Source of the DNA: Nemertoderma westbladi
Taxonomy: Eukaryota > Animalia > Xenacoelomorpha
Reading direction: 5' to 3'
Assembly: GCA_032718475.1 (NCBI GenBank)
Contig: JAUCBJ010002774.1
Location: 2,359-66,358, forward strand
Length of the DNA stretch: 64,000 nucleotides
Under the pieces are notes generated by a model that was not told the origin of the DNA, did not search any database, and worked only from the letters and a program-made list of their open reading frames with translations. Position 1 is the first letter of the stretch, and each line of letters starts with the position of its first letter. The position numbers and the translations under genes are program-made. This document shows, one piece after another, positions 8,152 to 64,000 of this stretch.

Positions 8152-8322
8152 ATTACATTGTATGCGGTACCGATTCAGGACGAATATCTATTCTAGAATA
8201 CGACGCTAAAAAGAATGTGTTTGAAAAAGTTCATCAAGAAACTTTCGGGAAAAGTGGCTGTCGACGAATTATTCCGGGACAACATCTGGCGGTCGATCCT
8301 AAAGGGAGAGCCTTGATGCTTG
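8152..8322 (+). CDS. SF3B3: SF3B3 coding exon 2
   Basis: ttttag| (D)[16 protein letters not shown]...[31 protein letters not shown]|gtaggt. Phases are compatible with the neighbouring exons. Confidence 0.97.
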
Positions 8323-10365
8323 GTAGGTGGGGTAACTGGAAGGTGTGGTACATGGTAGGTGTGGTACATGGTAGGTGTGGTACCTGGTATGTGTGGTACC
8401 TGGTAGGTTTGGTACATGGTAGGTGTGGTACATGGCAGGTGTGGTACATGGTAGGTGTGGTACCTGGTATGTGTGGTACCTGGTAGGTTTGGTACTTGGT
8501 AGGTGTGGTACATGGTAGGTGTGGTACCTGGTAGGTTTGGTACATGGTAGGTGTGGTACATGGTAGGTGTGGTACATGGTAGGTGTGGTACCTGGTAGGT
8601 TTGGTACATGGTAGGTGTGGTACATGGTAGGTGTGGTACATGGTAGGTGTGGTACATGGTAGGTGTGGTACATGGTAGGTGTGGTACATGGTAGGTGTGG
8701 TACCTGGTATGTGTGGTACCTGGTAGGTTTGGTACATGGTAGGTTTGGTACATGGCAGGTGTGGTACATGGTAGGTGTGGTACCTGGTATGTGTGGTACC
8801 TGGTAGGTTTGGTACATGGTAGGTGTGGTACATGGTAGGTGTGGTACATGGCAGGTGTGGTACCTGGTAGGTGTGGTACATGGTAGGTGTGGTACATGGT
8901 AGGTGTGGTACATGGTAGGTGTGGTACATGGTAGGTGTGGTACATGGTAGGTGTGGTACATGGTATGTGTGGTACAGGGTAGGTGTGGTACATGGTAGGT
9001 GTGGTACATGGTAGGTGTGGTACATGGTAGGTGTGGTACATGGTAGGTGTGGTACCTGGTATGTGTGGTACCTGGTAGGTTTGGTACATGGTAGGTGTGG
9101 TACATGGTAGGTGTGGTACATGGTAGGTGTGGTACTTGGTAGGTGTGGTACCTGGTATGTGTGGTACCTAGTAGGTTTGGTACATGGTAGGTTTGGTACA
9201 TGGTAGGTTTGGTACCTGGTAGGTGTGGTACATGGTAGGTGGGGTAATTGGTATGTGTGGTACATGGTAGGTGTGGTACCTGGTATGTGTGGTACCTGGT
9301 AGGTTTGGTACATGGTAGGTTTGGTACATGGCAGGTGTGGTACATGGTAGGTGTGGTACCTGGTATGTGTGGTACCTGGTAGGTGTGGTACCTGGTATGT
9401 GTGGTACCAGGTAGGTGTGGTACCTGTAAGTGGTACCAGGTAGGTGTGGTACATGGTAGGTGTGGTACAGGGTAGGTGTGGTACATGGTAGGTGTGGTAC
9501 ATGGTAGGTTTGGTACATGGTAGGTGTGGTACATGGTAGGTGTGGTACCTGGTAGGTGTGGTACCTGGTAGGTGTGGTACATGGTAGGTGTGGTACCTGG
9601 TAGGTGTGGTACATGGTAGGTGTGGTACATAGTAGGTGTGGTACATGGTAGGTGTGGTACATGGTAGGTGTGGTACCTGTAAGTGGTACCAGGTAGGTGT
9701 GGTACCTGGTAGGTGTGATACATGGTAGGTGTGGTACATGGTAGGTGTGGTACCTGGTATGTGTGGTACCAGGTAGGTGTGGTACATGGTAGGTGTGGTA
9801 CATGGTAGGTGTGGTACATGGTAGGGTTGGTACATGGTAGGTGTGGTACCTGGTAGGTGTGGTACATGGTAGGTGTGGTACATGGTAGGTGTGGTACATG
9901 GTAGGTGTGGTACATGGTAGGTGTGGTACCTGGTAGGTGTGGTACCTGGTAGGTGTGGTACATGGTAGTTGTGGTACCAGGTAGGTGTGGTACAGGTACC
10001 TGGTAGGTGTGGTACATGGTAGGTGTGGTACATGGTATGTGTGGTACATGGTAGGTGTGGTACTTGGTAGGTGTGGTACATGGTAGGTGTGCTACCTGGT
10101 AGGTGTGGTACATGGTAGGTGTGGTACATGGTAGGTGTGGTACATGGCAGGTGTGGTACCTGGTAGGTGTGGTACCTGGTAGGTGTGGTACATGGTAGGT
10201 GTGGTACATGGTAGGTGTGGTACCAGGTAGGTGTGGTACATGGTATGTGTGGTACCGGGTAGATGAGTGTGTAGATTTCTTAAGCCCAGTGCTGACTGAC
10301 TGCTTGGCCTACTGCTTGCCTACCGCTGTTACTGCTACTGACCACAGGCTACTTTGATTTTGCAT

Positions 10366-13300
10366 ATGGGAAGGTGTTGTGGCTGCAATTTTACGTCGGG
10401 CAAATGCAAGACATGCGTTTGCGTTCGCGCAAAACGGGCCTGCGAAAACTGCGGTCCTGGTACAGCAGGGCGGTGCGAAAATCTATTCAGGAATGGTCAT
10501 TCCTGTTCGCAGCCGACATCGTCGTCAACTGCTGACAACCAGGTGGCGCCGGCGCGCATATCTTCATCGCAACCGTTGGATCTTGACGTTAGGTCTCCAG
10601 ATGAAACTCTAATTGATCTAGACTCGACCCTTGTTCCCAATGGGGCTGATCAAACAGACATCACAGCGTCTGACGTTGTGGTGAGCGAGGTCGTGGGATT
10701 CACAGCGGAGTTGAATGGCGCCGCAACGTCTACTGCACCCCCGTCAGGCGCCACCACGCCTTCGACGCCCCCATCAGTTGCCGCCATGTTTACGGCGCCC
10801 GCGTCAGGCGCCGCCATGTCTACGGCGCCCGCGTCAGGCGCCGCCGTGTCTACGGCGCCCGCGTCAGGCGCCGCCATGTCTACAACGCCCCCGTCGGACG
10901 CCGCCATGTCTACGACGCCCCCGTCAAGCGCCGCCATGTCTACGGCGCCCGCGTCAGGTGTCGCCATGTCTACGACGCCCCCGTCAAGCGCCACCATGTC
11001 TACGACGCCCGCGTCAGGTGCCGCCATGTCTACGACGCCCCCGTCAAGCGCCGCCATGTCTACGACGCCCGCGTCAGGTGCCGCCATGTCTACGACGCCC
11101 CCGTCAAGCGCCGCCATGTCTACGACGCCCCCGTCAGGCGCCGCCATGTCTACGACGCCCCCGTCAGGCGCCGTCGCCGTCATGCCTACGACTCCCCCGT
11201 CTCGCGCCGTCCCCGACCTACCAGGATATCAACCCCGCGGCCTGGCGTTTAGTTGGAACGGAATACCCGGCGAGTTATTTGAAAGTCAATTAAAGGATGC
11301 GTATGACGAGGTTGTCCACTGGAAGCCGCATCTCTTCAATATTCCTCGTACACAGGTCGGTCGGCAATTTATTTGCTCAATTACCAAACTTTTAAAGGCC
11401 TTCAGCGAGAAATCCAATCTAGAAGGGGTTGCTTTGCTAGCAGTTATGACAGCACCTAAACTACTATTACATGCCGCAGTCAAGGAACCAGATGGACATG
11501 GTGCCTTGGGTAGTATCAGCCAAACCCTTCGGAGACGACTCGAACTTTGGAACGAGGGCGACATTGGCGCTCTCTTAGACGAAGGGAGAGCACTCCAGGC
11601 CCGGAGTGTAGGAAATGGTGCTGTTAGGGTGGACTCTGATAAACCCAGGAGGGACTTCGTGTCTCGGATGAACACGGGACGGATTTCCGCTGCAATGGAT
11701 ATACTAACGGATGGTAAGGGCGGTTCGGTTATGGGATTAACGGAATTGGTTGGGAATAAAACCGTTAAGGAGATCCTAAGGGAGAAACATCCAGCGCCTG
11801 CAAGTGTCGATCCGTCACTAATCGAATCAGCATGGGGGGACACTGTCAGTTTTCACCCGGCAATTTTCGACGCGATTAGGGGTGAGGCAATTCTGTCCGC
11901 ATCCCTCCACACTCGGGGAACACCTGGTCCATCTGGCATCGACGCCGATGGATGGAGACGCATGCTTACGGCATTTGGATCCACATCAAACGACCTGCGA
12001 AACGCGGTGGCCGCGGTTACGAGACGCCTTTGTACCGAATACGTTGACCCCAAGAGTATTTCCCCACTCAATGCATGTCGACTGGTGCCCCTGGATAAAA
12101 CACCCGGCGTCCGACCGATTGGTGTAGGAGAAGTACTGAGAAGGATAATAGGGAAGTCGATAATGACATGTACCAGGGTAGACCTGGAAGCAGTGGCCGG
12201 TAATACCCAGTTGTGCGTGGGGCAGCTTGGAGGAATCGAGCATGCCATTCATGCTTTGCGTGACCAATACAACACCACCGAGTGCGAAGGAATCCTATCG
12301 ATAGATGCAACAAACGCATTCAATGCATTGAACAGACAACTCGCGTTGTTAAACATTAAACATGTATGTCCTGCATTGTCAACAGTCCTGGTGAACACCT
12401 ATCGAGAACCAACCCCACTGTTCGTGGACAAAGAGATCATGTGGTCTGAGGAGGGTACCACCCAGGGAGATCCGCTCGCCATGGCAATGTATGGCTCTGG
12501 TACACTGCCAATGGTAAAGAACCTCGTAATGATAGGCGCACAGACCGTATCAGCGGAGAACGAGGGCAAGCAGTCCATGGAAACAATGGGTGCGGTTGGA
12601 GACCCAGGGGACAGACAGGCGGACCATGACTACCCATGCGGTGGAGACCAACAAAATGCCAATCGAAGGGGTGGTTCTCTCATCCAAAAATGGTTCGCAG
12701 ACGATGGGAATGTCGCCGGCGGACTCATAAGGCTAAGAGAGTACTGGGAGAAGGTCAATGAAATCGGTCCAGGGTATGGCTACTTCCCCAACCCGGTAAA
12801 ATCCTATCTGATTGTAAAGGACGAGCACAGAGAGCAGGCTGAGAAGATATTTGCAGGAACCGGCATAAAATTGACTGATGGTCACAGGGTGCTAGGATCA
12901 GTTATTGGTTCAGAGAACGCATGCAACAAATTCATATTGGAGCGTGTTGACAAACTGTGTGAGCAATTGGCGCGATTAAACGAGTTCGCAGTTACTGCTC
13001 CCCATCCAGCATATAGTTGCCTCATAAATGGTCTACAGTCAAAGTCTACTTACCTCTCCCGAACCACCCCACATTTCGTAGATAACTTGGACAACGTGGA
13101 GAAATACATAGTGGACCACCTCATACCTACACTGACCGGACGGGCCCCTCCAGGCGAAATCGAGAGGAAGTTGCTCGCTCTTCCTGTAAGGGAGGGCGGC
13201 CTTGCAATATACCAACCACAGGACCTGCGGGAGAGTTACCATTCATCGAGGAGGATCTGTGAACCTCTCGATTCCATCGGGGTCGGAACGGCCCGACCAC

Positions 13301-14211
13301 GCGAGGCACAGAGGCTTATTGTACGTGAAGTGGTGGGGGAAAGGGAGGAGTACGTGAAAGCGAAGACGGCGGATGTAAACAGACAGTTGTCAGACGACTC
13401 CAAGTACCTCCGGGCACTAACACAGGAGAAAGGTGCTTCATCGTGGCTAACAGCCTTACCAATCCTCAAGTACGGGTTCGCCCTACACAAAACAGCATTT
13501 CGGGATGCCCTGTGCTTGAGGTATGGTTGGTTGCCACCAAAGCTCCCCTCCCACTGTGTATGTGGAGTTGCATTCTCCATCTCGCATTCGCTGCACTGTC
13601 CGACAGGGGGATACCCCAGTATTCGCCATAACGAGGTACGGGACTATTTAGCTGAGTTGCTCAACGAGGTGGCCCATGACGTGGAGAGTGAACCCGGTCT
13701 ACAACAAGTAGAGAGCGAGGAATTTCGGCTGGCGAGCACCTCAAGGGACCCGGATGCGCGGCTGGATGTAGCAGCGTGCGGGGTCTGGGGCGGGAGGTTC
13801 GAGAAAGTATACGTGGACGTAAAGATATTCAACCCGCTGTGCTCCTCTAACCCCCGTTCCATTTCGTCCGCGTATCAGAAGCACGAGAGGGAGAAACGAC
13901 GAAAATACGAGGAGAGGATAAATGAGATCGAGCATGGAGGTTTCTGCCCGTTCATCATGGCTACCACAGGGGGCGCTAGCAGAAGCGCGCATGCGCTCAT
14001 AAATCGAATATCGCTCCTCTCAGTCAAGCGGGATTCTCCCTATTCGCAGACCGTGTCTCTCGTGCGGACGAAGTTAAACTTTGCCCTGCTGCGGTCCGCT
14101 CTAATGTGTCTGAGGGGCGCCCGCACACCAAAGACCCGGCGGTCCACACAATCGCTGAGGGAAACCGGTATCCTCTGCGCGGTAGCCGAAGGTCTGGAGG
14201 TGCGGGCGTAG
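10366..14211 (+). CDS. CRE-type polyprotein: Cys-rich N-terminus, 10-aa repeat linker, reverse transcriptase, CCHC knuckle, PD-(D/E)xK-type endonuclease (1281 aa from the first ATG)
   Basis: LVPLDKTPGVRPIGVGEVLRR, DATNAFN, EGTTQGDPLAM, WFADD, CVCGVAFSISHSLHC, RHNEVRD, RLDV...DVKIFNP, HEREKRRKY. The ORF track start at 10354 is a TTG. Confidence 0.9.
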   Translation: MGRCCGCNFTSGKCKTCVCVRAKRACENCGPGTAGRCENLFRNGHSCSQPTSSSTADNQVAPARISSSQPLDLDVRSPDETLIDLDSTLVPNGADQTDITASDVVVSEVVGFTAELNGAATSTAPPSGATTPSTPPSVAAMFTAPASGAAMSTAPASGAAVSTAPASGAAMSTTPPSDAAMSTTPPSSAAMSTAPASGVAMSTTPPSSATMSTTPASGAAMSTTPPSSAAMSTTPASGAAMSTTPPSSAAMSTTPPSGAAMSTTPPSGAVAVMPTTPPSRAVPDLPGYQPRGLAFSWNGIPGELFESQLKDAYDEVVHWKPHLFNIPRTQVGRQFICSITKLLKAFSEKSNLEGVALLAVMTAPKLLLHAAVKEPDGHGALGSISQTLRRRLELWNEGDIGALLDEGRALQARSVGNGAVRVDSDKPRRDFVSRMNTGRISAAMDILTDGKGGSVMGLTELVGNKTVKEILREKHPAPASVDPSLIESAWGDTVSFHPAIFDAIRGEAILSASLHTRGTPGPSGIDADGWRRMLTAFGSTSNDLRNAVAAVTRRLCTEYVDPKSISPLNACRLVPLDKTPGVRPIGVGEVLRRIIGKSIMTCTRVDLEAVAGNTQLCVGQLGGIEHAIHALRDQYNTTECEGILSIDATNAFNALNRQLALLNIKHVCPALSTVLVNTYREPTPLFVDKEIMWSEEGTTQGDPLAMAMYGSGTLPMVKNLVMIGAQTVSAENEGKQSMETMGAVGDPGDRQADHDYPCGGDQQNANRRGGSLIQKWFADDGNVAGGLIRLREYWEKVNEIGPGYGYFPNPVKSYLIVKDEHREQAEKIFAGTGIKLTDGHRVLGSVIGSENACNKFILERVDKLCEQLARLNEFAVTAPHPAYSCLINGLQSKSTYLSRTTPHFVDNLDNVEKYIVDHLIPTLTGRAPPGEIERKLLALPVREGGLAIYQPQDLRESYHSSRRICEPLDSIGVGTARPREAQRLIVREVVGEREEYVKAKTADVNRQLSDDSKYLRALTQEKGASSWLTALPILKYGFALHKTAFRDALCLRYGWLPPKLPSHCVCGVAFSISHSLHCPTGGYPSIRHNEVRDYLAELLNEVAHDVESEPGLQQVESEEFRLASTSRDPDARLDVAACGVWGGRFEKVYVDVKIFNPLCSSNPRSISSAYQKHEREKRRKYEERINEIEHGGFCPFIMATTGGASRSAHALINRISLLSVKRDSPYSQTVSLVRTKLNFALLRSALMCLRGARTPKTRRSTQSLRETGILCAVAEGLEVRA
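10715..11210 (+). repeat. 30-bp coding tandem repeat (MSTTPPSGAA-like, ~16 copies) inside the CRE ORF
   Basis: ccgccatgtctacgacgcccccgtcaggcg repeated in frame. Confidence 0.9.
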
Positions 14212-15990
14212 GCGAATGTGGGACTGGCTTACTTTTTTTTTATTGGTGGAGGGTACTACACAATTCGATGGCCTAGTAAATTTATCTATCTTATGTCCAA
14301 TGTGCAGAGCAGTATTATTGATATGAAAATATAAATAAACGTACGATGTGTAAAAAAAAAAAACCGGGTAGGTTTGGTACAGGGTAGGTGTGGTACCTGG
14401 TAGGTGTGGTACATGGTAGGTGTGGTACCTGGTAGGTGTGGTACATGATAGGTGTGGTACCTGGTAGGTGTGGTACATGTTAGGTGTGGTACATGGTAGG
14501 TGTGGTACAGGGTAGGTGTGGTACCTGGTAGGTGTGGTACATGGTAGGTTTGGTACATGGTAGGTGTGGTACATGGTAGGTGTGGTACCTGGTAGGTTTG
14601 GTACATGGTAGGTGTGGTACAGGGTAGGTGTGGTACATGGTAGGTGTGGTACCTGGTATGTGTGGTACCTGGTAGGTGTGGTACCTGGTAGGTGTGGTAC
14701 ATGGTAGGTATGGTACCGGGTAGGTGTGGTACCTGGTAGGTGTGGTACATGGTAGGTGTGGTACATGGTGGTAGGTGTGGTACTTGGTAGGTGTGGTACA
14801 TGGTAGGTGTGGTACATGGTAGGTGTGGTACTTAGTAGGTGTGGTACATGGTAGGTGTGGTACCTGGTATGTGTGGTACTTCGTAGGTATGGTACATGGT
14901 AGGTGTGGTACATGGTAGGTGTGGTACCTGGTATGTGTGGTACTTCGTAGGTGTGGTACATGGTAGGTGTGGTACATGGTAGGTGTGGTACATTGTAGGT
15001 GTGGTACCTGGTAGGTGTGGTACATGATAGGTGTGGTACATGGTAGGTGTCGTACATGGTAGGTGTGGTACATGGTAGGTGTGGTACATGGTGGTAGGTG
15101 TGGTACTTGGTAGGTGTGGTACATGGTAGGTGTGGTACATGGTAGGTGTGGTACTTGGTAGGTGTGGTACATGGTAGGTGTGGTGCATGGTAGGTGTGGT
15201 ACCTGGTATGTGTGGTGCATGGTAGGTGTGGTACCTGGTATGTGTGGTACTTGGTAGGTGTGGTACATGGTAGGTGTGGTACATGGTAGGTGTGGTACAT
15301 TGTAGGTGTGGTACCTGGTAGGTGTGGTACATGATAGGTGTGGTACATGGTAGGTGTCGTACATGGTAGGTGTGGTACCTGGTAGGCGTGGGACCTGGTA
15401 GGTGTGGTGCATGGTAGGTGTGGTATATGGTAGGTGCGGTACATGGTAGGTGTGGTACATGGTAGGTGTGGTACCAGGTAGGTGTGGTACATGGTATGTG
15501 TGGTACCGGGTAGGTGTGGTACCTGGTAGGTGTGGTACCTGGTATGTGTGGTACATGGTATGTGTGGTACCGGGTAGGTGTGGTACCTGGTAGGTGTGGT
15601 ACATGGTAGGTGTGGTACATGGTGGTAGGTGTGGTACTTGGTAGGTGTGGTACATGGTAGGTGTGGTACATGGTAGGTGTGGTACTTGGTAGGTGTGGTA
15701 CATGGTAGGTGTGGTACCTGGTATGTGTGGTACTTCGTAGGTGTGGTACATGGTAGGTGTGGTACCTGGTATGTGTGGTACTTCGTAGGTGTGGTACATG
15801 GTAGGTGTGGTACATGGTAGGTGTGGTACATTGTAGGTGTGGTACCTGGTAGGTGTGGTACATGATAGGTGTGGTACATGGTAGGTGTCGTACATGGTAG
15901 GTGTGGTACCTGGTAGATGTGGTACCTGGTAGGTGTGGTACATGGTAGGCGTGGGACCTGGTAGGTGTGGTGCATGGTAGGTGTAGGTGT

Positions 15991-16512
15991 CCTGCCTGCC
16001 AAGTACCTAACTGATCTAGACTTTGCTGATGACTTAGGAGTACTCTCAGAATCACTAGAGGGAGCCCAACGGCTCCTCAGCTCATTAGAACATGCTGCTT
16101 CTAGTGTTGGTCTTTTTATTAACTCCAGAAAGACCAAAATTTTGACAGTTAACTTTGAAAGTCCTCAGCAAGTCTCTGATCGGATGAGCATAAGCTCAAA
16201 GGATGGTATGCTTGAGCATGTGGATGACTTCTGTTACCTGGGATCATGGATCCGGAAAGTCAGGCGAGGACCTTCGAATACGTAAGGGAAAGGCATGGGC
16301 AGCCTTAAATAGGCTTTCCAGGATTTGGAAGTCACCGAGAATTAATCGGAAACTTAAGGTCCGGTTATTTAGAGCAGCAGTAGTTCCAGTACTCCTCTAT
16401 GGGAGTCTATGCTGGGCTCTAACTGCTGAGGACACCAAATCTCTGGATGGCACATTCACAAGAATGCTACGCCGGGTTCATTGTGCCAAGTTCAATGCAC
16501 ACATCTCCAACA
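15991..16512 (+). mobile_element. Internal fragment of the RTE LINE family found at 31269-33268, with no 3' tail
   Basis: Near-identical to the reverse complement of ~31600-32117 (PAKYLTDLDFADD...HISN). One extra A at ccggaaagtc causes a frameshift. Confidence 0.9.
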
Positions 16513-17249
16513 TGGTGGGGTACATGCACATGGCAGGTGTGGTACGTGTTAGATGTGGTACCTGGTAGGTGTGGTACATGGTAGGTGTGGTACTTGGTAG
16601 GTGTAGTACATGGTAGGTGTGGTACATGGTAGGTGTGGTACCTGGTAGGTGTGGTACATGGTAGGTGTGGTACATGGTAGGTGTGGTACATGGTAGGTGT
16701 GGTACATTGTAGGTGTGGTACCTGGTATATAGGTGTGGTACATGGTTGGTGTGGTACATGGTAGGTGTGGTACTTGATAGGTGTGGTACTTGATAGGTGT
16801 GGTACTTGGTAGGTGTGGTACATAGCTGTGGTACAAAGATGTAGTACAGCTGGTAGGTGTTGTACCTTGTAGGTGTGGTATATGTAAGGTGTGGTACGTG
16901 TTGTTAGATGTGGTACCTGCCTGGTAGGTGTGATACATGTTATATGTGTTATATCAAAAGTCAGTATATATTTAATGATTTCAAGATAACTGGCAACATA
17001 TAAGAAACTTAGCAAACCAATGTGCTTCAAACCGCAACAAATTCTGTAATACACTGAAAGCAGAAGATAGGATGGAAATTCCTATGTCAAATGGGGACAA
17101 TCTAGTTGGTCATTATAAAAACCGTTTCAGTCTCTTAGATTATTGGGCCTTGGATAGGACTCTTAGATTGAATGATTTGAGAGATCTCCAATGTGTTTCA
17201 ATGCAAAAAGTTTCGATGTATAAAGTGCTATACTCACACCTCACTTCAC

Positions 17250-20253: not shown

Positions 20254-20426
20254 GCGCAGTTGAGAAACAGAAACTCGTCTACATATTGAATCGCGATAGC
20301 GAGGCGAGATTGACAATCTCCTCGCCCCTGGAGGCCCATAAAGCCAATACCATCATCTACTTTACTCTGGGGGTAGATGTTGGGTTCGACAATCCAACGT
20401 TCGCCACTCTCGAGATGGACTATGAG
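20254..20426 (+). CDS. SF3B3: SF3B3 coding exon 3
   Basis: tgtag| (G)[31 protein letters not shown]...LEMDYE |gtgagt. Confidence 0.97.
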
Positions 20427-22941: not shown

Positions 22942-23089
22942 GAAGCTGATAACGATCCATCTGGTGACGCAGCCCAGGTCAGCCAACAGAGTCTAACTTT
23001 CTACGAGTTAGATCTCGGACTCAATCACGTAGTCAGAAAGTACAGCGAGTTGTTGGAAGAACGGGGGAATATGTTGATAGCAGTACCAG
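22942..23089 (+). CDS. SF3B3: SF3B3 coding exon 4
   Basis: ttcag| EADNDPSGDAAQVSQQSLTFYELDLGLNHVVRKYSELLEERGNMLIAVP G|gtgagt. Confidence 0.97.
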
Positions 23090-26000
23090 GTGAGTGAGTG
23101 TGGGAGAACGGGGGAATATGTTGGTAGCAGTACCAGGTGAGTGAGTGAGTGTGGGAGAACGGGGGAATAAGTTGGTAGCAGTACCAGGTGAGTGATTGTG
23201 GGAGAACGGGGGAATATGTTGGTAGCAGTACCAGGTGAGTGATTGTGGGAGAACGGGGGAATATGTTGGTAGCAGTACCAGGTGAGTGAGTGTGGGAGAA
23301 CGGGGGAATATGTTGGTAGCAGTACCAGGTGAGTGATTGTGGGAGAACGGGGGAATATGTTGATAGCAGTACCGGGTGAGTGAGTGTGGGAGATGGGGGA
23401 ATATGTTGATAGCAGTACCAGGTGAGTGATTGTGGGAGAACGGGGGAATATGTTGGTAGCAGTACCGGGTGAGTGAGTGTGGGAGAACGGGGGAATATGT
23501 TGATAGTAGTACCAGGTGAGTGAGTGTGGGAGACGGGGGAATATGTTGGTAGCAGTACCGGGTGAGTGAGTGTGGGAGAACGGGGGAATATGTTGATAGC
23601 CAGTACCAGGTGAGTGAGTGTGGGAGAACGGGGTAATATGTTGATAGCAGTACCAGGTGAGTGAGTGAGTGTGGGAGAACGGGGGAATATGTTAGGTAGC
23701 AGTACCAGGTGAGTGAGTGTGGGAGAACGGGGTAATATGTTGATAGCAGTACCAGGTGAGTGAGTGAGTGTGGGAGAACGGGGGAATATGTTAGATAGCA
23801 GTACCGGGTGAGTGAGTGTGGGAGACGGGGGAATATGTTGGTAGCAGTACCAGGTGAGTGATTGTGGGAGAACGGGGGAATATGTTGATAGCCAGTACCA
23901 GGTGAGTGAGTGTGGGAGAACGGGGGAATATGTTGATAGCAGTACCGGGTGAGTGAGTGTGGGAGATGGGGGAATATGTTGATAGCAGTACCAGGTGAGT
24001 GATTGTGGGAGAACGGGGGAATATGTTGGTAGCAGTACCAGGTGAGTGATTGTGGGAGAACGGGGGAATATGTTGATAGCAGTACCGGGTGAGTGAGTGT
24101 GGGAGATGGGGGAATATGTTGATAGCAGTACCAGGTGAGTGAGTGAGTGTGGGAGAACGGGGGAATATGTTAGGTAGCAGTACCAGGTGAGTGAGTGTGG
24201 GAGAACGGGGTAATATGTTGATAGCAGTACCAGGTGAGTGAGTGTGGGAGAACGGGGGAATATGTTGATAGCAGTACCGGGTGAGTGAGTGTGGGAGATG
24301 GGGGAATATGTTGATAGCAGTACCAGGTGAGTGAGTGAGTGTGGGAGAACGGGGGAATATGTTAGGTAGCAGTACCAGGTGAGTGAGTGTGGGAGAACGG
24401 GGTAATATGTTGATAGCAGTACCAGGTGAGTGAGTGAGTGTGGGAGAACGGGGGAATATGTTAGATAGCAGTACCGGGTGAGTGAGTGTGGGAGACGGGG
24501 GAATATGTTGGTAGCAGTACCAGGTGAGTGATTGTGGGAGAACGGGGGAATATGTTGATAGCCAGTACCAGGTGAGTGAGTGTGGGAGAACGGGGTAATA
24601 TGTTGATAGCAGTACCAGGTGAGTGAGTGAGTGTGGGAGAACGGGGGAATATGTTAGATAGCAGTACCGGGTGAGTGAGTGTGGGAGAACGGGGGAATAT
24701 GTTAGATAGCAGTACCAGGTGAGTGAGTGTGGGAGAACGGGGGAATATGTTAGGTAGCAGTACCAGGTGAGTGAGTGTGGGAGAACGGGGGAATATGTTG
24801 GTAGCAGTACCGGGTGAGTGAGTGTGGGAGAACGGGGGAATATGTTGTAGCAGTACCAGGTGAGTGAGTGTGGGAGAACGGGGGAATATGTTAGGTAGCA
24901 GTACCAGGTGAGTGAGTGTGGGAGAACGGGGGAATATGTTGGTAGCAGTACCGGGTGAGTGAGTGTGGGAGAACGGGGGAATATGTTAGATAGCAGTACC
25001 AGGTGAGTGAGTGTGGGAGAACGGGGGAATATGTTAGATAGCAGTACCAGGTGAGTGAGTGTGGGAGAACGGGGGAATATGTTAGGTAGCAGTACCAGGT
25101 GAGTGAGTGTGGGAGAACGGGGGAATATGTTGGTAGCAGTACCGGGTGAGTGAGTGTGGGAGAACGGGGGAATATGTTGTAGCAGTACCAGGTGAGTGAG
25201 TGTGGGAGACGGGGGAATATGTTGGTAGCAGTGCCAGGTGAGTGAGTGTGGGAGAACGGGGTAATATGTTGATAGCAGTACCAGGTGAGTGAGTGAGTGT
25301 GGGAGAACGGGGTAATATGTTGATAGTAGTACCAGGTGAGTGAGTGAGTGTGGGAGAACGGGGGAATATGTTAGGTAGCAGTACCAGGTGAGTGAGTGTG
25401 GGAGAACGGGGTAATATGTTGATAGCAGTACCAGGTGAGTGAGTGAGTGTGGGAGAACGGGGGAATATGTTGATAGCAGTGCCAGGTGAGTGAGTGTGGG
25501 AGAACGGGGAATATGTTGGTAGCAGTACCAGGTGAGTGATTGTGGGAGAACGGGGGAATATGTTGGTAGCAGTACCAGGTGAGTGATTGTGGGAGAACGG
25601 GGGAATATGTTGGTAGCAGTACCAGGTGAGTGATTGTGGGAGAACGGGGGAATATGTTGATAGCAGTACCGGGTGAGTGAGTGTGGGAGATGGGGGAATA
25701 TGTTGATAGCAGTACCAGGTGAGTGAGTGAGTGTGGGAGAACGGGGGAATATGTTAGGTAGCAGTACCAGGTGAGTGAGTGTGGGAGAACGGGGTAATAT
25801 GTTGATAGCAGTACCAGGTGAGTGAGTGAGTGTGGGAGAACGGGGGAATATGTTAGATAGCAGTACCGGGTGAGTGAGTGTGGGAGACGGGGGAATATGT
25901 TGGTAGCAGTACCAGGTGAGTGATTGTGGGAGAACGGGGGAATATGTTGATAGCCAGTACCAGGTGAGTGAGTGTGGGAGAACGGGGTAATATGTTGATA

Positions 26001-29000
26001 GCAGTACCAGGTGAGTGAGTGAGTGTGGGAGAACGGGGGAATATGTTAGATAGCAGTACCGGGTGAGTGAGTGTGGGAGAACGGGGGAATATGTTAGATA
26101 GCAGTACCAGGTGAGTGAGTGTGGGAGAACGGGGGAATATGTTAGGTAGCAGTACCAGGTGAGTGAGTGTGGGAGAACGGGGGAATATGTTGGTAGCAGT
26201 ACCGGGTGAGTGAGTGTGGGAGAACGGGGGAATATGTTGTAGCAGTCCAGGTGAGTGAGTGTGGGAGACGGGGGAATATGTTGGTAGCAGTGCCAGGTGA
26301 GTGAGTGTGGGAGACGGGGGAATATGTTAGATAGCAGTACCAGGTGAGTGAGTGTGGGAGGCGGGGGAATATGTTAGGTAGCAGTACCGGGTGAGTGAGT
26401 GTGGGAGAGCGGGGAATATGTTGGTAGCAGTACCGGGTGAGTGAGTGTGGGAGAACGGGGGAATATGTTAAGTAGCAGTACCGGGTGAGTGAGTGTGGGA
26501 GAACGGGGGAATATGTTAGGTAGCAGTACCGGGTGAGTGAGTGTGGGAGAACGGGGAATATGTTGGTAGCAGTACCGGGTGAGTGAGTGTGGGAGAACGG
26601 GGGAATATGTTAAGTAGCAGTACCGGGTGAGTGAGTGTGGGAGAACGGGGGAATATGTTAGGTAGCAGTACCGGGTGAGTGAGTGTGGGAGAACGGGGAA
26701 TATGTTGGTAGCAGTACCGGGTGAGTGAGTGTGGGAGACGGGGGAATATGTTGATAGCGGTACCAGGTGGGTGAGTGTGGGAGACGGGGGAATATGTTGG
26801 TAGCAGTACCAGGTGAGTGAGTGTGGGAGACGGGGGAATATGTTGATAGCAATACCGGGTGAGTGAGTGTGGGAGAACGGGGGAATATGTTAGATAGCAA
26901 TACCAGGTGAGTGAGTGTGGGAGACGGGGGAATATGTTGGTAGCAGTACCAGGTGAGTGAGTGTGGGAGATGGGGGAATATGTTAGATAGCAGTACCGGG
27001 TGAGTGAGTGTGGGAGACGGGGGAATATGTTAGGTAGCAGTACCGGGTGAGTGAGTGTGGGAGAACGGGGGAATATGTTAGATAGCAGTACCAGGTGAGT
27101 GAGTGTGGGAGAACGGGGGAATATGTTGATAGCAGTGCCAGGTGAGTGAGTGTGGGAGAACGGGGGAATATGTTAGGTAGCAGTACCGGGTGAGTGAGTG
27201 TGGGAGAACGGGGGAATATGTTAGATAGCAGTACCAGGTGAGTGAGTGTGGGAGAACGGGGGAATATGTTGATAGCAGTGCCAGGTGAGTGAGTGTGGGA
27301 GGACGGGGGAATATGTTAGATAGCAATACCAGGTGAGTGAGTGTGGGGGACGGGGGAATATGTTGGTAGCAGTACCGGGTGAGTGAGTGTGGGAGAACGG
27401 GGGAATATGTTAGATAGCAATACCAGGTGAGTGAGTGTGGGAGACGGGGGAATATGTTGGTAGCAGTACCAGGTGAGTGAGTGTGGGAGATGGGGGAATA
27501 TGTTAGATAGCAGTACCGGGTGAGTGAGTGTGGGAGACGGGGGAATATGTTAGGTAGCAGTACCGGGTGAGTGAGTGTGGGAGAACGGGGGAATATGTTA
27601 GATAGCAGTACCAGGTGAGTGAGTGTGGGAGAACGGGGGAATATGTTGATAGCAGTGCCAGGTGAGTGAGTGTGGGAGAACGGGGGAATATGTTAGGTAG
27701 CAGTACCGGGTGAGTGAGTGTGGGAGAACGGGGGAATATGTTAGATAGCAGTACCAGGTGAGTGAGTGTGGGAGAACGGGGGAATATGTTGATAGCAGTA
27801 CCAGGTGAGTGAGTGAGTGTGGGAGAACGGGGTAATATGTTGATAGCAGTACCAGGTGAGTGAGTGAGTGTGGGAGAACGGGGGAATATGTTAGGTAGCA
27901 GTACCAGGTGAGTGAGTGTGGGAGAACGGGGTAATATGTTGATAGCAGTACCAGGTGAGTGAGTGAGTGTGGGAGAACGGGGGAATATGTTAGATAGCAG
28001 TACCGGGTGAGTGAGTGTGGGAGAACGGGGGAATATGTTGGTAGCAGTACCAGGTGAGTGATTGTGGGAGAACGGGGGAATATGTTGGTAGCAGTACCAG
28101 GTGAGTGATTGTGGGAGAACGGGGGAATATGTTGATAGCAGTACCGGGTGAGTGAGTGTGGGAGATGGGGGAATATGTTGATAGCAGTACCAGGTGAGTG
28201 AGTGAGTGTGGGAGAACGGGGGAATATGTTAGGTAGCAGTACCAGGTGAGTGAGTGTGGGAGAACGGGGTAATATGTTGATAGCAGTACCAGGTGAGTGA
28301 GTGAGTGTGGGAGAACGGGGGAATATGTTAGATAGCAGTACCGGGTGAGTGAGTGTGGGAGAACGGGGGAATATGTTAGATAGCAGTACCAGGTGAGTGA
28401 GTGTGGGAGAACGGGGGAATATGTTAGGTAGCAGTACCAGGTGAGTGAGTGTGGGAGAACGGGGGAATATGTTGGTAGCAGTACCGGGTGAGTGAGTGTG
28501 GGAGAACGGGGGAATATGTTGTAGCAGTCCAGGTGAGTGAGTGTGGGAGACGGGGGAATATGTTGGTAGCAGTGCCAGGTGAGTGAGTGTGGGAGACGGG
28601 GGAATATGTTAGATAGCAGTACCAGGTGAGTGAGTGTGGGAGGCGGGGGAATATGTTAGGTAGCAGTACCGGGTGAGTGAGTGTGGGAGAACGGGGAATA
28701 TGTTGGTAGCAGTACCGGGTGAGTGAGTGTGGGAGAACGGGGGAATATGTTAAGTAGCAGTACCGGGTGAGTGAGTGTGGGAGAACGGGGGAATATGTTA
28801 GGTAGCAGTACCGGGTGAGTGAGTGTGGGAGAACGGGGAATATGTTGGTAGCAGTACCGGGTGAGTGAGTGTGGGAGAACGGGGGAATATGTTAAGTAGC
28901 AGTACCGGGTGAGTGAGTGTGGGAGAACGGGGGAATATGTTAGGTAGCAGTACCGGGTGAGTGAGTGTGGGAGAACGGGGAATATGTTGGTAGCAGTACC

Positions 29001-32000
29001 GGGTGAGTGAGTGTGGGAGACGGGGGAATATGTTGGTAGCAGTACCAGGTGAGTGAGTGTGGGAGACGGGGGAATATGTTGATAGCAATACCGGGTGAGT
29101 GAGTGTGGGAGAACGGGGGAATATGTTAGATAGCAATACCAGGTGAGTGAGTGTGGGATACGGGGGAATATGTTGGTAGCAGTACCAGGTGAGTGAGTGT
29201 GGGAGATGGGGGAATATGTTAGATAGCAGTACCGGGTGAGTGAGTGTGGGAGACGGGGGAATATGTTAGGTAGCAGTACCGGGTGAGTGAGTGTGGGAGA
29301 ACGGGGGAATATGTTAGATAGCAGTACCAGGTGAGTGAGTGTGGGAGAACGGGGGAATATGTTGATAGCAGTGCCAGGTGAGTGAGTGTGGGAGAACGGG
29401 GGAATATGTTAGGTAGCAGTACCGGGTGAGTGAGTGTGGGAGAACGGGGGAATATGTTAGATAGCAGTACCAGGTGAGTGAGTGTGGGAGAACGGGGGAA
29501 TATGTTGATAGCAGTGCCAGGTGAGTGAGTGTGGGAGGACGGGGGAATATGTTAGATAGCAATACCAGGTGAGTGAGTGTGGGGGACGGGGGAATATGTT
29601 GGTAGCAGTACCGGGTGAGTGAGTGTGGGAGAACGGGGGAATATGTTAGATAGCAATACCAGGTGAGTGAGTGTGTGAGAACGGGGGAATATGTTGATAG
29701 CAGTGCCAGGTGAGTGAGTGTGGGAGATGGGGGAATATGTTAGATAGCAGTACCGGGTGAGTGAGTGTGGGAGACGGGGGAATATGTTAGGTAGCAGTAC
29801 CGGGTGAGTGAGTGTGGGAGAACGGGGGAATATGTTAGATAGCAGTACCGGGTGAGTGAGTGTGGGAGACGGGGGAATATGTTAGGTAGCAGTACCGGGT
29901 GAGTGAGTGTGGGAGAACGGGGGAATATGTTAGATAGCAGTACCAGGTGAGTGAGTGTGGGAGAACGGGGGAATATGTTGATAGCAGTGCCAGGTGAGTG
30001 AGTGTGGGAGAACGGGGGAATATGTTAGGTAGCAGTACCGGGTGAGTGAGTGTGGGAGAACGGGGGAATATGTTAGATAGCAGTACCAGGTGAGTGAGTG
30101 TGGGAGAACGGGGGAATATGTTGATAGCAGTGCCAGGTGAGTGAGTGTGGGAGGACGGGGGAATATGTTAGATAGCAATACCAGGTGAGTGAGTGTGGGG
30201 GACGGGGGAATATGTTGGTAGCAGTACCAGGTGAGTGAGTGTGGGAGACGGGGGAATATGTTGATAGCAGTACCAGGTGAGTGAGTGTGGGAGAACGGGG
30301 GAATATGTTGGTAGCAGTACCATGTGAGTGAGTGTGGGAGAACGGGGGAATATGTTGATAGCAGTACCAGGTGGGTGAGTGTGGGAGAACGGGGTAATAT
30401 GTTGATAGCAGCACCAGGTGAGTGAGTGAGTGTGGGAGAACGGGGGAATATGTTAGATAGCAGTACCGGGTGAGTGAGTGTGGGAGAACGGGGGAATATG
30501 TTAGATAGCAGTACCAGGTGAGTGAGTGTGGGAGAACGGGGGAATATGTTGATAGCAGTACCAGGTGAGTGAGTGTGGGAGAACGGGGTAATATGTTGAT
30601 AGCAGTACCAGGTGAGTGAGTGAGGGTGGGAGAACGGGGGAATATGTTAGATAGCAGTACCGGGTGAGTGAGTGTGGGAGAACGGGGGAATATGTTAGAT
30701 AGCAGTACCAGGTGAGGGAGAACGGGGGAATATGTTGATATCAGTACCAGGTGAGTGAGTGTGGGAGAACGGGGGAATATGTTAGGTAGCAGTACCGGGT
30801 GAGTGAGTGTGGGAGAACGGGGGAATATGTTAGATAGCAGTACCAGGTGAGTGAGTGTGGGAGAACGGGTGAATATGTTGATAGCAGTACCAGGTGAGTG
30901 AGTGTGGGAGGACGGGGGAATATGTTAGATAGCAATACCAGGTGAGTGAGTGTGGGGGACGGGGGAATATGTTGGTAGCAGTACCAGGTGAGTGAGTGTG
31001 GGAGATGGGGGAATATGTTGGTAGCAGTACCAGGTGAGTGAGTGTGGGAGAACGGGGGAATATGTTGGTAGCAGTACCAGGTGAGTGAGTGTGAGAGAAC
31101 GGGGGAATATGTTGATAGCAGTACCAGGTGAGTGAGTGTGGGAGACGGGGGAATATGTTGGTAGCAGTACCAGGTGAGTGAGTGAGTGTGGGAGAACGGG
31201 GGAATATGTTGGTAGCAGTACCGGGTGAGTGAGTGTGGGAGAACGGGGGAATATGTTGGTAGCAGTACTACTACTACTAGGATCGGCATGCTGCATTGCA
31301 GCTGCATTTTTAAGAATGCTGTGCCGGCTTGTCAACAAAATTGCACCGCCACAACTCCCTATCACCCATGACATTTGCTAGATCATCCGCATCTTTAAGG
31401 CCAGTGTCCTTTAAGATGCGTCTCAAGAAAGTCATGGGCTGTCCACCATGCTTATTCACTCCATGAGGCTGCCAAAGTACAAGATTATGCACTGGCTGGT
31501 CCTCACGGCGAAAGCAATGTCCTGCAAAGCGGAGGCGATTTTGTTCTAGTGTCAAGCTTGGGGGAACCAATGAGACACCTCCAATGTTATATAGTGTCTG
31601 GTTGGAGATGTGTGCATTGTACTTGACACAATGTACCCGGCGTAGCATTCTTGTGAATGTGCCATCCAGAGATTTGGTGTCCTCAGCAGTTAGAGCCCAG
31701 CATGGACTCCCGTAGAGGAGTACTGGAACTACTGCTGCTCTAAATAATCGGACCTTAAGTTTCCGATTAATTCTAGGTGACTTCCAAATCCTGGAAAGCC
31801 TATTCAAGGCTGCCCATGCCTTTCCCTTACGTATTCGAAGGTCCTCACCTGACTTCCGGATCCATGATCCCAGGTAACAGAAGTCGTCCACATGCTCAAG
31901 CATACCATCCTTTGAGCTTATGCTCATCCGATCAGAGACTTGCTGAGGACTTTCAAAGTTAACTGTCAGAATTTTGGTCTTTCTGGAGTTAATAAAAAGA

Positions 32001-34784: not shown

Positions 34785-34891
34785 GCGGAGGCGATGGTCC
34801 CAGTGGGGTTCTTATCGGAGCGGAGAACTACATCACTTACAAAAACTTTGGCGACCAGCCAGATATCCGGATGCCAATACCTAGACGGCGG
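34785..34891 (+). CDS. SF3B3: SF3B3 coding exon 5
   Basis: tttag| (G)GGDGPSGVLIGAENYITYKNFGDQPDIRMPIPRRR |gttagt. Missed by the ORF track. Confidence 0.96.
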
Positions 34892-34937
34892 GTTAGTTTG
34901 TAGTTAAATACCTGGACGATGGATTAGTTTGTAGTTA
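34876..34937 (+). repeat. Two-copy 31-bp tandem duplication spanning the exon 5 donor
   Basis: aatacctagacggcgg|gttagtttgtagtta followed by aatacctggacgatgg|attagtttgtagtta (27/31 identical). Confidence 0.85.
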
Positions 34938-35082: not shown

Positions 35083-35179
35083 AATGATTTGGATGACCCC
35101 GACAGAGGAATGCTATTCGTTTCCTCGGCAACCCATAAAACCAAAGCCATGTTCTTTCTTCTGCTGCAAACTGAGCAAG
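35083..35179 (+). CDS. SF3B3: SF3B3 coding exon 6
   Basis: tccag| NDLDDPDRGMLFVSSATHKTKAMFFLLLQTEQ G|gttagt. Confidence 0.96.
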
Positions 35180-35969
35180 GTTAGTTACATTATTGAGCTG
35201 CAAATTCAGTCTGGATTCTAAAATGTTTGATGGTTTGAGTTTTTGTTGAATCAAAATGATTTCGCCCTTGAAATAATTTATTATATTCCTGTAACACACG
35301 GCAGAGCCGAATATTTACACGAACGAGCGAAGCGAGTTGATTCTCGCAATGTTTTTCGCGAACTCTGATTGAATATTATAATATCTTATACGTTAAGAAG
35401 AAACTACTCTGGTCATTTTATGCCAATCACAATTAAGCTAAATTATGAAAGTGAATAACGTAATAGTTAGTTACTTTAAGCAACAAGTTCTCATTAACTG
35501 CAAGCCGTTAATAAATATGGTGAGAGCTCAAGGGAATGCATGGATCACTTCACTATAGAGTCGCGTTCATAAATCGAGAAATTTATCGTAAAAAATTAAT
35601 TATTCTTTGATAATTGCTACATTTATTAATATGATATTTACACATCCCGCGCGAGCTTATACTTTATAAATACAAAAAATACACAAATTAGGAAATTCAA
35701 ATTATATATCAGGAAGAAATATTAAGCCTACTTTACATTTGATGGCACACAATGCAGAAATCCCTAGAGGTTAATAAATTAATTGTAATTAAATTAATGA
35801 AAATTTAAATCATAACCAATAATTGTGTACAAAAACAGACTTTTCAAAACTAAGTGCTCCTTTATAGTAAAACCCATAAAACCACAGGCTTTTACCATGG
35901 AATTGTATACAAGTTTCTCCATGGCAACTGCCAACGACTGGGGGACTGGTAGCCTTGACGACCACCGCA

Positions 35970-39600: not shown

Positions 39601-40878
39601 CTTCATATTAACTCACTAACCACTACACTACACGTCATATTAACTCACTAACCACTATACTGCACTTCATATTAACTCACTAACCACTAGACTACACATT
39701 ATATTAACTCACTAACCACTACACTACACTTCATATTAACTCACTAACCACTACAACACTACATTTCATACTAACTCTCTAACCACTACACTACACTTCA
39801 TATTAACTCACTAACCACTACACTACACTTCATATTAACTCACTAACCACTACAACACTACACTTCATATTAACTCACTAACCACTACACTACACATTAT
39901 ATTAACTCACTAACCAACCACTACACTGCACGTCATATTAACTCACTAACCACTACACTACACTTCATATTAACTCACTAACCACTACATTACACTTCAT
40001 ATTAACTCACTAACCACTACAACACTACACTTCATACTAACTCTCTAACCACTACACTACACTTCATATTAACCCAATAACCACTACACTACACTTCATA
40101 TTAACTCACTAACCACTACAACACTACACTTCATATTAACTCACTAACCACTACACTACACATTATATTAACTCACTAACCACTACAACACTACACTTCA
40201 TACTAACTCTGTAACCACTACACTACACTTCATATTAACTCACTAACCAACCACTACACTACACTTCATATTAACTCACTAACCAACCACTACACTACAC
40301 TTCATATTAACTAACCAACCACTACACTACACTTCATATTAACTCACTAACAAACCACTACACTACACTTCATATTAACTCACTAACCAACCACTACACT
40401 ACGCGTCATATTAACTCACTAACCACTACACTACACTTCATATTAACTCACTAACCAACCACTACACTACACGTCATATTAACTCACTAACCACTACACT
40501 ACACATTATATTAACTCACTAACCACTACACTACACTTCATATTAACTCACTAACCACTACAACACTACACTTCATATTAACTCACTAACCACTACACTA
40601 CACATTATATTAACTCACTAACCACTACACTACACTTCATATTAACTCACTAACCACTACACTTCATATTAACTCACTAACCATTACACTACACTTCATA
40701 TTAACTCACTAACCAACCACTACACTACACTTCATATTAACTCACTAACCACTACACTACACATTATATTAACTCACTAACCACTAGACTACACATTATA
40801 TTAACTCACTAACCACTACACTACACATTATATTAACTCACTAACCACTAGACTACACATTATATTAACTCACTAACC
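36680..40878 (-). repeat. 32-bp minisatellite (~130 copies) beginning at the donor of Ly6-like exon 2
   Basis: Minus-strand unit G|GTTAGTGAGTTAATATGAAGTGTAGTGTAGT. The first copy is the real junction ACG|gttagtgagttaatata at 40878/40877. Confidence 0.95.
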
Positions 40879-40978
40879 GTACAATGACCACAGTCGTATT
40901 TAATTTCAAGTTCGTCAACATTTATTTCTTCTATATTTTCATCGAGGAATTTGTATGTTCCTTTGTAGCAAGTTACCC
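40878..40978 (-). CDS. Nested Ly6/uPAR-like gene, exon 2
   Basis: ttttcag| (G)VTCYKGTYKFLDENIEEINVDELEIKYDCGHCT |gttagt. Phase 1 start and phase 0 end fit both neighbours. Confidence 0.78.
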
Positions 40979-44098: not shown

Positions 44099-44110
44099 GC
44101 GTGGACTCAC

Positions 44111-62673: not shown

Positions 62674-62818
62674 GTGATATATTCAAAATTACTATGGAGG
62701 TTGATGAAGACATGGTCACTGAGATTAAGATGAAATACTTCGACACGGTACCGGTTGCTACTTCCATGTCTGTACTTAAAACTGGTTTCTTATTTATCGC
62801 ATCGGAATTCGGAAATCA
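62674..62818 (+). CDS. SF3B3: SF3B3 coding exon 7 (gene continues beyond the window)
   Basis: tttcag| (G)DIFKITMEVDEDMVTEIKMKYFDTVPVATSMSVLKTGFLFIASEFGN CA|gtaagt. Confidence 0.97.
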
Positions 62819-62824
62819 GTAAGT

Positions 62825-64000
62825 CCAGTTGTTCCTTATACTTCCAGTTATTTGTACCAGTTGTTCCTTATACTTCCAGTTATTTGTACCAGTTGTTTCT
62901 TTTACTTCCAGTTATTTGTACCAGTTGTTCCTTATACTTCCAGTTTTTTGTACCAATTGTTCCTTATACTTCCAGTTATTTGTACCAGTTGTTCCTTATA
63001 CTTCCAGTTATTTGTACCAGTTGTTCCTTTTACTTCCAGTTATTTGTACCAGTTGTTCCTTATACTTCCAGTTATTTGTACCAGTTGTTTCTTTTACTTC
63101 CAGTTATTTGTACCACTTGTTTCTTTTACTTCCAGTTATTTGTACCAGTTGTTTCTTTTACTTCCAGTTATTTGTACCAGTTGTTTCTTTTACTTCCAGT
63201 TATTTGTACCAGTTGTTTCTTTTACTTCCAGTTATTTGTACCAGTTGTTCCTTATACTTCCAGTTATTTGTACCAGTTGTTTCTTTTACTTCCAGTTATT
63301 TGTACCAGTTGTTTCTTTTACTTCCAGTTATTTGTACCAGTTGTTTCTTTTACTTCCAGTTATTTGTACCAGTTGTTTCTTTTACTTCCAGTTATTTGTA
63401 CCAGTTGTTTCTTTTACTTCCAGTTATTTGTACCAGTTGTTTCTTTTACTTCCAGTTATTTGTACCAGTTGTTTCTTTTACTTCCAGTTATTTGTACCAG
63501 TTGTTCCTTATACTTCCAGTTTTTTGTACCAGTTGTTCCTTATACTTCCAGTTATTTGTACCAGTTGTTCCTTATACTTCCAGTTATTTGTACCAGTTGT
63601 TCCTTATACTTCCAGTTATTTGTACCAGTTGTTCCTTTTACTTCCAGTTATTTGTACCACTTGTTCCTTATACTTCCAGTTATTTGTACCAGTTGTTCCT
63701 TATACTTCCAGTTATTTGTACCAGTTGTTCCTTTTACTTTCAGTTATTTGTACCAGTTGTTCCTTATACTTCCAGTTATTTGTACCAGTTGTTCCTTTTA
63801 CTTCCAGTTATTTTTACCAGTTGTTCCTTATACTTCCAGTTATTTGTACCAGTTGTTCCTTATACTTCCAGTTATTTGTACCAGTTGTTCCTTTTACTTC
63901 CAGTTATTTGTACCAATTTTTCCTTATACTTCCAGTTATTTGTACCAGTTGTTCCTTATACTTCCAGTTATTTGTACCAGTTGTTTCTTTTACTTCCAGT
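62825..64000 (+). repeat. 32-bp minisatellite (at least 36 copies, running off the window) made of a 3' splice site plus the first 13 nt of the next SF3B3 exon
   Basis: Unit ttgttccttatacttccag|TTATTTGTACCAG. Exon 7 CA plus T TAT TTG TAC CAG gives H-Y-L-Y-Q, the conserved SF3B3 continuation FGNHYLYQ. Confidence 0.93.

What the first reader, a model, noticed from the sequence alone, without database searches (positions are those of the whole stretch)
8321..64000. Splice-junction-seeded minisatellites: introns expanded by tandem amplification of their own splice sites
Seen: five unrelated repeats have units built on a real exon-intron boundary. They are 16 bp at the SF3B3 exon 2 donor, 47 bp at the exon 4 donor, 31 bp x2 at the exon 5 donor, 32 bp at the nested Ly6 exon 2 donor (opposite strand) and 32 bp matching the exon 8 acceptor. 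That is 4 of 7 SF3B3 introns and 1 of 2 Ly6 introns. The units share nothing except being the local junction, so they are not a dispersed satellite family. Inference: a lineage-wide process generates or retains repeats specifically at splice junctions, for example transcription/splicing-coupled breaks, R-loops or slippage followed by unequal exchange. It inflates introns with hundreds of decoy splice sites that must be ignored. I cannot check whether this has been described for this taxon.
Basis: partly seen in the sequence, partly recalled or inferred. Interest (0 to 1): 0.92.

Follow-up and report, generated by a model that had tools for sequence, protein, structure and literature searches.

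The report
Minisatellites copied from splice junctions
In an unidentified invertebrate, five unrelated tandem repeats have copied splice signals of the SF3B3 gene and a nested gene hundreds of times into their introns, yet the assembled RNA uses the genuine signal at every junction tested, so this is a dense new example of a known oddity (lancelet "mirages") that is likely harmless.

Summary
Five unrelated repeats (16, 47, 31, 32, 32 bp) include a splice site: SF3B3 donors 2, 4, 5, the exon-8 acceptor, and a donor of a nested Ly6-like gene. A spliced contig confirms four of the five junctions and uses the exon-proximal site each time; donor 2 rests on homology. Three units carry 12-36 exon bases; the Ly6 unit carries one, the 16-mer two. 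The arrays hold about 530 decoy sites and 33% of SF3B3 intron DNA in the window. Four of the five are seen in an independent DNA sample. Within the window, 5 of 14 arrays hit a junction against 0.25 expected (P 3e-6), but the window was picked after the fact and the excess fades if introns were short when the repeats arose. The type is published: amphioxus mirages (PMC3087553, PMC3902484) and human F7 (PMC1557585). This scan has noted it on other DNA, including two multi-intron windows. Best reading: ordinary tandem duplication and minisatellite amplification, tolerated through exon definition. A lineage-wide, splicing-coupled mutational process is untested: no genome is held and the taxon is unresolved.

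The parts
7005..7230 (+). SF3B3 first coding exon
   Evidence: PDB SF3B3 match E 2.5e-34; reading frame
8152..8322 (+). SF3B3 coding exon 2; donor at 8323
   Evidence: frame and gapless homology; not covered by reads laid
8321..16939 (+). 16-bp array starting at the exon-2 donor, about 243 units in three blocks, 182 decoys with the donor's G plus six intron bases; second copy has lost GT
10263..14362 (+). Intact non-LTR retroelement (1281-aa frame 10366-14211, poly(A), 8-9 bp target duplication) inserted in the 16-bp array
15985..16509 (+). LINE fragment in the 16-bp array, 97% identical to the element in the 47-bp array
20254..20426 (+). SF3B3 coding exon 3 (no repeat at either junction)
22942..23089 (+). 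SF3B3 coding exon 4; authentic donor at 23090 is the one used
   Evidence: spliced contig carries unique exon-4 sequence before a single unit
23054..34450 (+). 47-bp array (36 exon + 11 intron nt), about 198 copies in two blocks, 124 exact copies of the donor 9-mer
31269..33260 (-). Truncated LINE (RVT_1) inserted in the 47-bp array
34785..34891 (+). SF3B3 coding exon 5; first donor used (191-nt GT..AG skip)
34876..34937 (+). 31-bp two-copy duplication (16 exon + 15 intron nt); decoy GT mutated; present in sample S2
35083..35179 (+). SF3B3 coding exon 6
35759..36272 (-). Last exon of nested Ly6/uPAR-like gene (CC...CN motif, hydrophobic tail)
   Evidence: spliced contig; Atlas lead 0.86-0.89; no Pfam hit
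36680..40878 (-). 32-bp array starting at the Ly6-like donor (1 exon + 31 intron nt), about 130 copies, 118 decoys
40878..40978 (-). Ly6-like penultimate coding exon; donor at 40877 used; 5' limit uncertain
   Evidence: loose end of spliced contig; frame
62674..62818 (+). SF3B3 coding exon 7, spliced to exons 6 and 8
62828..64000 (+). 32-bp array copying the exon-8 acceptor (20 intron + 12 exon nt), at least 36 copies, starting 9 nt after the exon-7 donor; runs off the window

Best explanation
These are mirage-type minisatellites: five separate short tandem duplications each caught a splice site and four were then amplified to tens or hundreds of copies, likely by ordinary slippage and unequal exchange, and they are likely tolerated because the spliceosome picks the site closest across the exon. 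Shown: the junction copies, their local origin, use of the first donor and the last acceptor in the assembled transcript, and later retroelement insertions into two arrays. Inferred: the DNA-level origin; exon definition as the reason decoys are skipped; nonsense-mediated decay of rare decoy-spliced RNA (no unit length is a multiple of 3); and the cause of the local excess at junctions, which I put mostly on short host introns plus retention of repeats anchored to a constrained exon edge in a genome with active minisatellite turnover.
For: Exon-proximal site used at 4 of 4 tested junctions. Three units hold both exon and intron bases, which a spliced RNA cannot supply. Non-array sequence in host introns 4, 5, Ly6 and visible intron 7 is 334, 145, 407 and under 10 bp; a seed landing in such introns overlaps a junction with chance 0.13-0.97. 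Large arrays also form away from known junctions (28 and 43 bp). Decoy GT/AG is not purged in the long arrays (224 of 243, 80 of 80, 125 of 127, 36 of 36 tiled units), as expected if harmless. A 3-base microhomology flanks the acceptor unit. Same anatomy and normal splicing reported in lancelet and human genes. Proximity across the exon rules in long introns (PMC9225289 abstract).
Against: The local excess is about 20-fold on present-day lengths. Shrinking the long array-free introns to 10% still leaves P 0.012, and repeats 69-80% alike in introns 2 and 3 suggest those introns have long been large, so short introns alone do not explain it; the retention effect is not measured. The 16-mer sits in an intron with over 2 kb of other sequence. 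Two of five units start within 2 nt of the donor (expected 0.39, P 0.05). Contigs drop rare and degraded isoforms, so low decoy use is not excluded. One RNA-type run only.
Confidence: 0.55

Rival explanations
1. Junction-targeted mutation: transcription- or splicing-coupled breaks, R-loops or chromatin edges make tandem duplications arise preferentially at splice junctions throughout this lineage.
For: 5 of 14 arrays and 4 of 6 large ones at junctions, P about 3e-6. The three large donor arrays are strongly G-skewed on their sense strand (0.66, 0.68, 0.93). Two units start at the donor. Several lancelet genes show the same.
Against: One window chosen from very many; no genome-wide test possible. 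The acceptor array is C-skewed (-0.27) and the 28- and 43-bp arrays are AT-rich, so G-rich RNA is not needed. 12 of 17 splice sites have no repeat. Junction position in the unit varies (2/16, 36/47, 16/31, 1/32, 20/32).
Confidence: 0.2
2. Selection for expansion: in a short, intron-defined intron a duplicated site would win by proximity across the intron and be harmful, so a seed survives only by losing the decoy or by growing until exon definition takes over. That would enrich large arrays at junctions.
For: The only two-copy case lies in a 191-nt intron and has a dead GT; the four arrays with live decoys are in introns over 1.1 kb. The proximity rule flips with intron size (PMC9225289 abstract). 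Intron 7 reduces to 29 nt if collapsed to one unit.
Against: Five cases; one dead GT among 4 substitutions in 31 nt is not unusual. The rule was derived in human data. Intermediate sizes would have to pass through a fitness valley.
Confidence: 0.12
3. The arrays are functional: decoy donors recruit U1 to strengthen the exon or shield long introns from premature polyadenylation, or decoys give regulated unproductive isoforms of a splicing factor.
For: Decoy GT is kept in nearly all units; an inserted retroelement brings a sense-strand AATAAA at 14334; SF3B3 is a core splicing factor.
Against: Retention is no higher than at other unit positions. The nested non-splicing gene has the same feature. 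Units are unrelated. No decoy-spliced contig was seen among those listed.
Confidence: 0.06
4. Assembly artefact: the arrays were created or inflated by the assembler.
Against: An independent sample (S2, runs X2 and X3) has contigs joining unique DNA to the acceptor array and the 47-mer, holds the 31-bp duplication, and shows raised depth on the Ly6 array (rough ratios 115 and 132 against 130 copies). Units carry structured variants and retroelement insertions with target duplications.
Confidence: 0.03

Closest known systems
Amphioxus 'mirage' minisatellites (globins BflGb6, BflGb9; Adh3; troponin C; PGBD5). Read: passages of PMC3087553 and PMC3902484. The original Adh3 paper (PMC117041) is not held and is known here only through those two.
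   Same: Tandem copies of a gene's own exon-intron boundary, both donor and acceptor types, unrelated units (10-72 bp in Adh3, 60-160 bp elsewhere), several genes in one lineage, normal splicing, origin stated as unclear.
   Different: Copy numbers here reach 100-240 against 2-7 in the globin and PGBD5 cases read; four introns of one gene; arrays host retroelements; the organism is a long-branched animal of unresolved taxon (82% best identity).
Human donor-spanning VNTRs: F7 intron 7 (37 bp, 5-9 copies), 6-16, CBS intron 13, LMNB2, PDGF intron 4. Read: abstract, Introduction and Discussion of PMC1557585.
   Same: First unit spans the donor; F7's unit has only 4 exon bases, like the 16-mer here; the most upstream donor is used although pseudo-sites are functional.
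   Different: One array per gene, at most about 25 copies, donor side only in that paper; 6-16 and CBS also use nearby pseudo-sites, which was not seen here at contig level.
Intron gain by tandem duplication of AG/GT-containing segments (Rogers model; as summarised in PMC3087553)
   Same: Duplications that include splice signals and are removed by splicing; intron 7 appears to be almost wholly array.
   Different: The donor of intron 7 is not part of the repeat and no new intron or exon was shown; orthologous intron positions were not compared.

Membership tests
Mirage-type junction minisatellite | Head-to-tail repeat whose unit contains a real splice site of the host gene | tested here: met
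   5 of 5; junctions confirmed by spliced contigs for 4, by homology for 1
Mirage-type junction minisatellite | Unit holds both exon and intron sequence | tested here: inconclusive
   Met for the 47-, 31- and terminal 32-mers; weak for the 16-mer (2 exact, perhaps 8-9 diverged); only 1 base for the Ly6 32-mer
Mirage-type junction minisatellite | Locus-specific unit, not a dispersed family | tested here: met
   Within the window only: 0-2 stray 14-mer hits; rough depth ratios of the order of in-window copy number. Genome not available.
Mirage-type junction minisatellite | mRNA spliced at the authentic site | tested here: met
   4 of 4 tested junctions in run X4; exon-2 donor not tested; minor isoforms invisible in contigs
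Mirage-type junction minisatellite | Copy-number polymorphism or somatic instability | not testable with these tools
   Short-read contigs do not span the arrays
Dispersed satellite or transposon-derived repeat | Same unit at unrelated loci or within a mobile element | tested here: not met
   Units match their own junctions and nothing else in the window; tested in 64 kb only
Ly6/uPAR family (nested gene label) | Cysteine-rich three-finger domain ending CC-x4-CN with a hydrophobic C-terminal signal | tested here: inconclusive
   Motif and tail seen (motif definition recalled); no Pfam hit for the last exon; Atlas leads at 0.86-0.89 to QVR/UPAR_LY6 clusters

The most novel reading that the evidence does not exclude
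In this lineage splice junctions are genome-wide hot spots, about 20-fold over other intron DNA, for the birth or survival of minisatellites, and junction arrays with their retroelement cargo are a main route of intron growth, possibly because a duplicated site in a short intron must either die or expand until exon definition silences it. Intron 7, where at least 36 acceptor copies starting 29 nt from the donor are skipped, would be a natural test of exon versus intron definition in an invertebrate.
Probability: 0.27. Interest if true: 0.7.

Novelty: new member of a known kind. Interest (0 to 1): 0.4.

Why it matters
The type is known, but how it arises is stated as unclear (PMC3087553), and my ten literature searches returned no genome-wide count of repeats at splice junctions against a matched null. 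A genome this dense in them would make that test easy and would show whether junctions are mutation or retention hot spots. The locus also shows in one gene that first donors and a last acceptor win over tens to hundreds of near-identical rivals, which favours exon definition. In practice such arrays mislead gene prediction and short-read assembly.

Tried and rejected
Genome-wide test: no whole genome is held. Taxon: the sulfotransferase gave 2 distant hits; SF3B3 is about 80% identical to all animals found, and in a 37-row tree the window's protein is a long branch outside a supported 19-row clade of annelids, molluscs, nemerteans and flatworms, with unsettled bootstrap; unresolved, so the 'described for this taxon' question stays open. 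No RNA holder was listed; run X4, labelled 'DNA?', is treated as RNA-derived because its contigs skip GT..AG introns and leave unique intron DNA uncovered. Are the 28-bp (46067-46842) and 43-bp (48457-53263) arrays at hidden junctions? Their acceptor-like motifs score 2.4-7.2 and 2.0-3.2 bits against 6.1 for the true exon-8 acceptor, and such scores are common in background; not supported, not excluded. Purging of decoys in long arrays: not seen. Longer exon share in the Ly6 unit: not significant (one row was out of register and redone in 58). Searches had the Ly6 donor off by one base; one search corrects the null (unchanged) and the decoy counts, and the donor scores are not used. Unit lengths all non-multiples of 3: P 0.13, not significant. 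Earlier findings in this genome or on look-alike DNA: none; one word look-up empty. Paper searches gave no genome-wide study of junction-spanning repeats; one search did not classify the retroelement.

Full report
Gene map. The window holds the first seven coding exons of SF3B3 on the + strand (7005-7230, 8152-8322, 20254-20426, 22942-23089, 34785-34891, 35083-35179, 62674-62818). Joined, they give 355 aa with no stop. The first exon matches solved SF3B3, and 66 of 78 relatives aligned over at least 340 aa have no gap, best identity 82%. A small cysteine-rich gene lies on the - strand in intron 6; Ly6/uPAR-like is a lead from its motif and Atlas neighbours at 0.86-0.89, with no Pfam hit. No genome is held and the taxon could not be fixed.

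The repeats. Tandem Repeats Finder gave 36 rows. I merged overlapping and interrupted rows, and left out three upstream of the gene and one inside a retroelement frame, leaving 14 independent arrays in the transcribed span. Five overlap a splice site. The 47-mer is 36 exon plus 11 intron bases, about 198 copies; the 31-mer is 16 plus 15, two copies, with the second GT mutated; the 16-mer starts 2 bases before donor 2, about 243 units; the Ly6 32-mer starts 1 base before its donor, about 130 copies; the terminal 32-mer is 20 intron plus 12 exon-8 bases, at least 36 copies. Decoys with the donor's G and six intron bases number 182, 193 and 118; acceptor decoys 35. The arrays fill 18,714 of 55,929 SF3B3 intron bases in the window. 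Their recurrent 14-mers occur outside the own array 0, 2, 0, 0 and 0 times. So three units truly straddle a junction, one probably does in diverged form and one merely begins at the donor.

Independent data. Six runs were listed, four holding the query, from three samples; I laid those four on two stretches (62300-62920 and 34355-36750). X1 may be the source of the assembly. In sample S2, a contig spans 62490-62854 (exon 7, donor, first acceptor unit), another 34409-35111 (end of the 47-mer through the 31-bp duplication, with no gap listed there), and depth rises over the Ly6 array by rough factors of 115 and 132 against 130 copies (the tool warns that depth is not copy number, and the 47-mer's distal bin gave only about 12). 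Run X4 behaves as RNA. Its 3536-nt contig has unique exon-4 sequence before a single unit, joins exon 5, skips 191 nt from the first exon-5 donor, joins exons 6 and 7, and continues with 12 bases identical to the terminal unit followed by unique sequence that fits the conserved protein (57 of 78 relatives share the next residues exactly); record positions leave no room for an extra unit between exons 4 and 7. A second contig joins the Ly6-like exons at the first donor. Thus 4 of 4 tested junctions use the exon-proximal site. Contigs drop rare forms, and decoy use would shift the frame or meet stops, so minor use is not excluded.

More than chance? With arrays collapsed and seeds placed at random outside exons, 0.25 of 14 should touch a junction; 5 do (P 2.9e-6). 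Requiring 10 exon bases gives 3 of 14 (P 4.6e-4); among six large arrays, 4 (P 3.5e-6). Two cautions. The window was chosen for this feature from a very large scan. And the null depends on intron length when the seeds arose: P is 0.15 if all introns were 200 bp and 0.66 at 100 bp; keeping the short introns and shrinking the long ones to 10% or 2% gives 0.012 and 0.11. Host introns 4, 5, Ly6 and visible 7 have 334, 145, 407 and under 10 bases of other sequence, which favours a role for geometry; old dispersed repeats in introns 2 and 3 argue that these were long before the arrays (inference from 69-80% identity). I read this as a probable real local excess of unknown cause.

Mechanism. A duplication over a donor leaves the true donor first; over an acceptor it leaves the true acceptor last. 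In long introns the spliceosome prefers the sites closest across the exon (PMC9225289, abstract), and F7 experiments show that downstream pseudo-donors are functional yet unused (PMC1557585). That accounts for tolerance at both kinds of array. Intron 7 is the sharpest case: decoy acceptors lie 29, 61, 93 nt and onward from the donor, and all are skipped for one over 1.1 kb away. Origin by slippage or repair between short direct repeats, then unequal exchange, is inferred from general knowledge of minisatellites (recalled) and a 3-base microhomology at the acceptor unit. Decoys are not purged in long arrays. Retroelements then used the arrays as landing sites: an intact 4.1-kb element with poly(A) and target duplication, and two pieces of one LINE family 97% alike.

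What is known. [quoted passage not shown] Passages of PMC12783039 describe intron repeats and exon duplications in earthworms but not this layout. Other papers were seen as search listings only. Ten searches found no genome-wide enrichment test; subscription journals are mostly missing from the library and no supplements were read. The scan's own notes list many single cases in sharks, rays, urchins, annelids and abalone, and two other multi-intron windows; these are unchecked.

Verdict. Real, well supported locally, a dense new member of a known kind. What remains worth doing is the genome-wide matched test. Interest 0.4.

Noticed in passing
window 10263-14362 (+): Intact single-frame non-LTR retroelement (1281 aa, RT motif, C-terminal nuclease-like region, internal 30-bp coding repeat, poly(A), 8-9 bp target duplication) inside the 16-bp array; 438 relatives at E<=1e-30, best 39-45% identical and almost all unnamed. 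A CRE-like clade is recalled, not tested.
   Followed up: partly
window 62819-62847: Collapsed to one unit, intron 7 would be 29 nt from donor to acceptor, very short for an animal; either the ancestral intron was tiny or unique sequence was deleted or lies beyond the window.
   Followed up: partly
window 15985-16509, 31269-33260, 55383-55513: Three pieces of one young LINE family (94-97% alike), two of them inside junction arrays; the minus-strand copy ends in a short triplet tail that matches its target.
   Followed up: partly
window 46067-46842 and 48457-53263: Two large minisatellites (28 and 43 bp) away from known junctions; each unit holds a weak pyrimidine-tract-AG motif. They could mark unannotated exons.
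   Followed up: partly
window 42912-44091: Inverted pair of 21-bp arrays around a 500-bp core, like a foldback or MITE element.
   Followed up: no
window 3159-4361 (+): Intronless galactose-3-O-sulfotransferase gene (PF06990, E 2.4e-45), only 31% identical to its best named relative.
   Followed up: partly
window 4673-5374: 315-bp tandem duplication (97% alike) followed by a triplet microsatellite, upstream of SF3B3.
   Followed up: no
window 62314-62481: Very high-depth dispersed repeat end next to a LINE (frame 59462-60478); 3 indels and 4 substitutions separate sample S2 from the window in 62536-62652.
   Followed up: no
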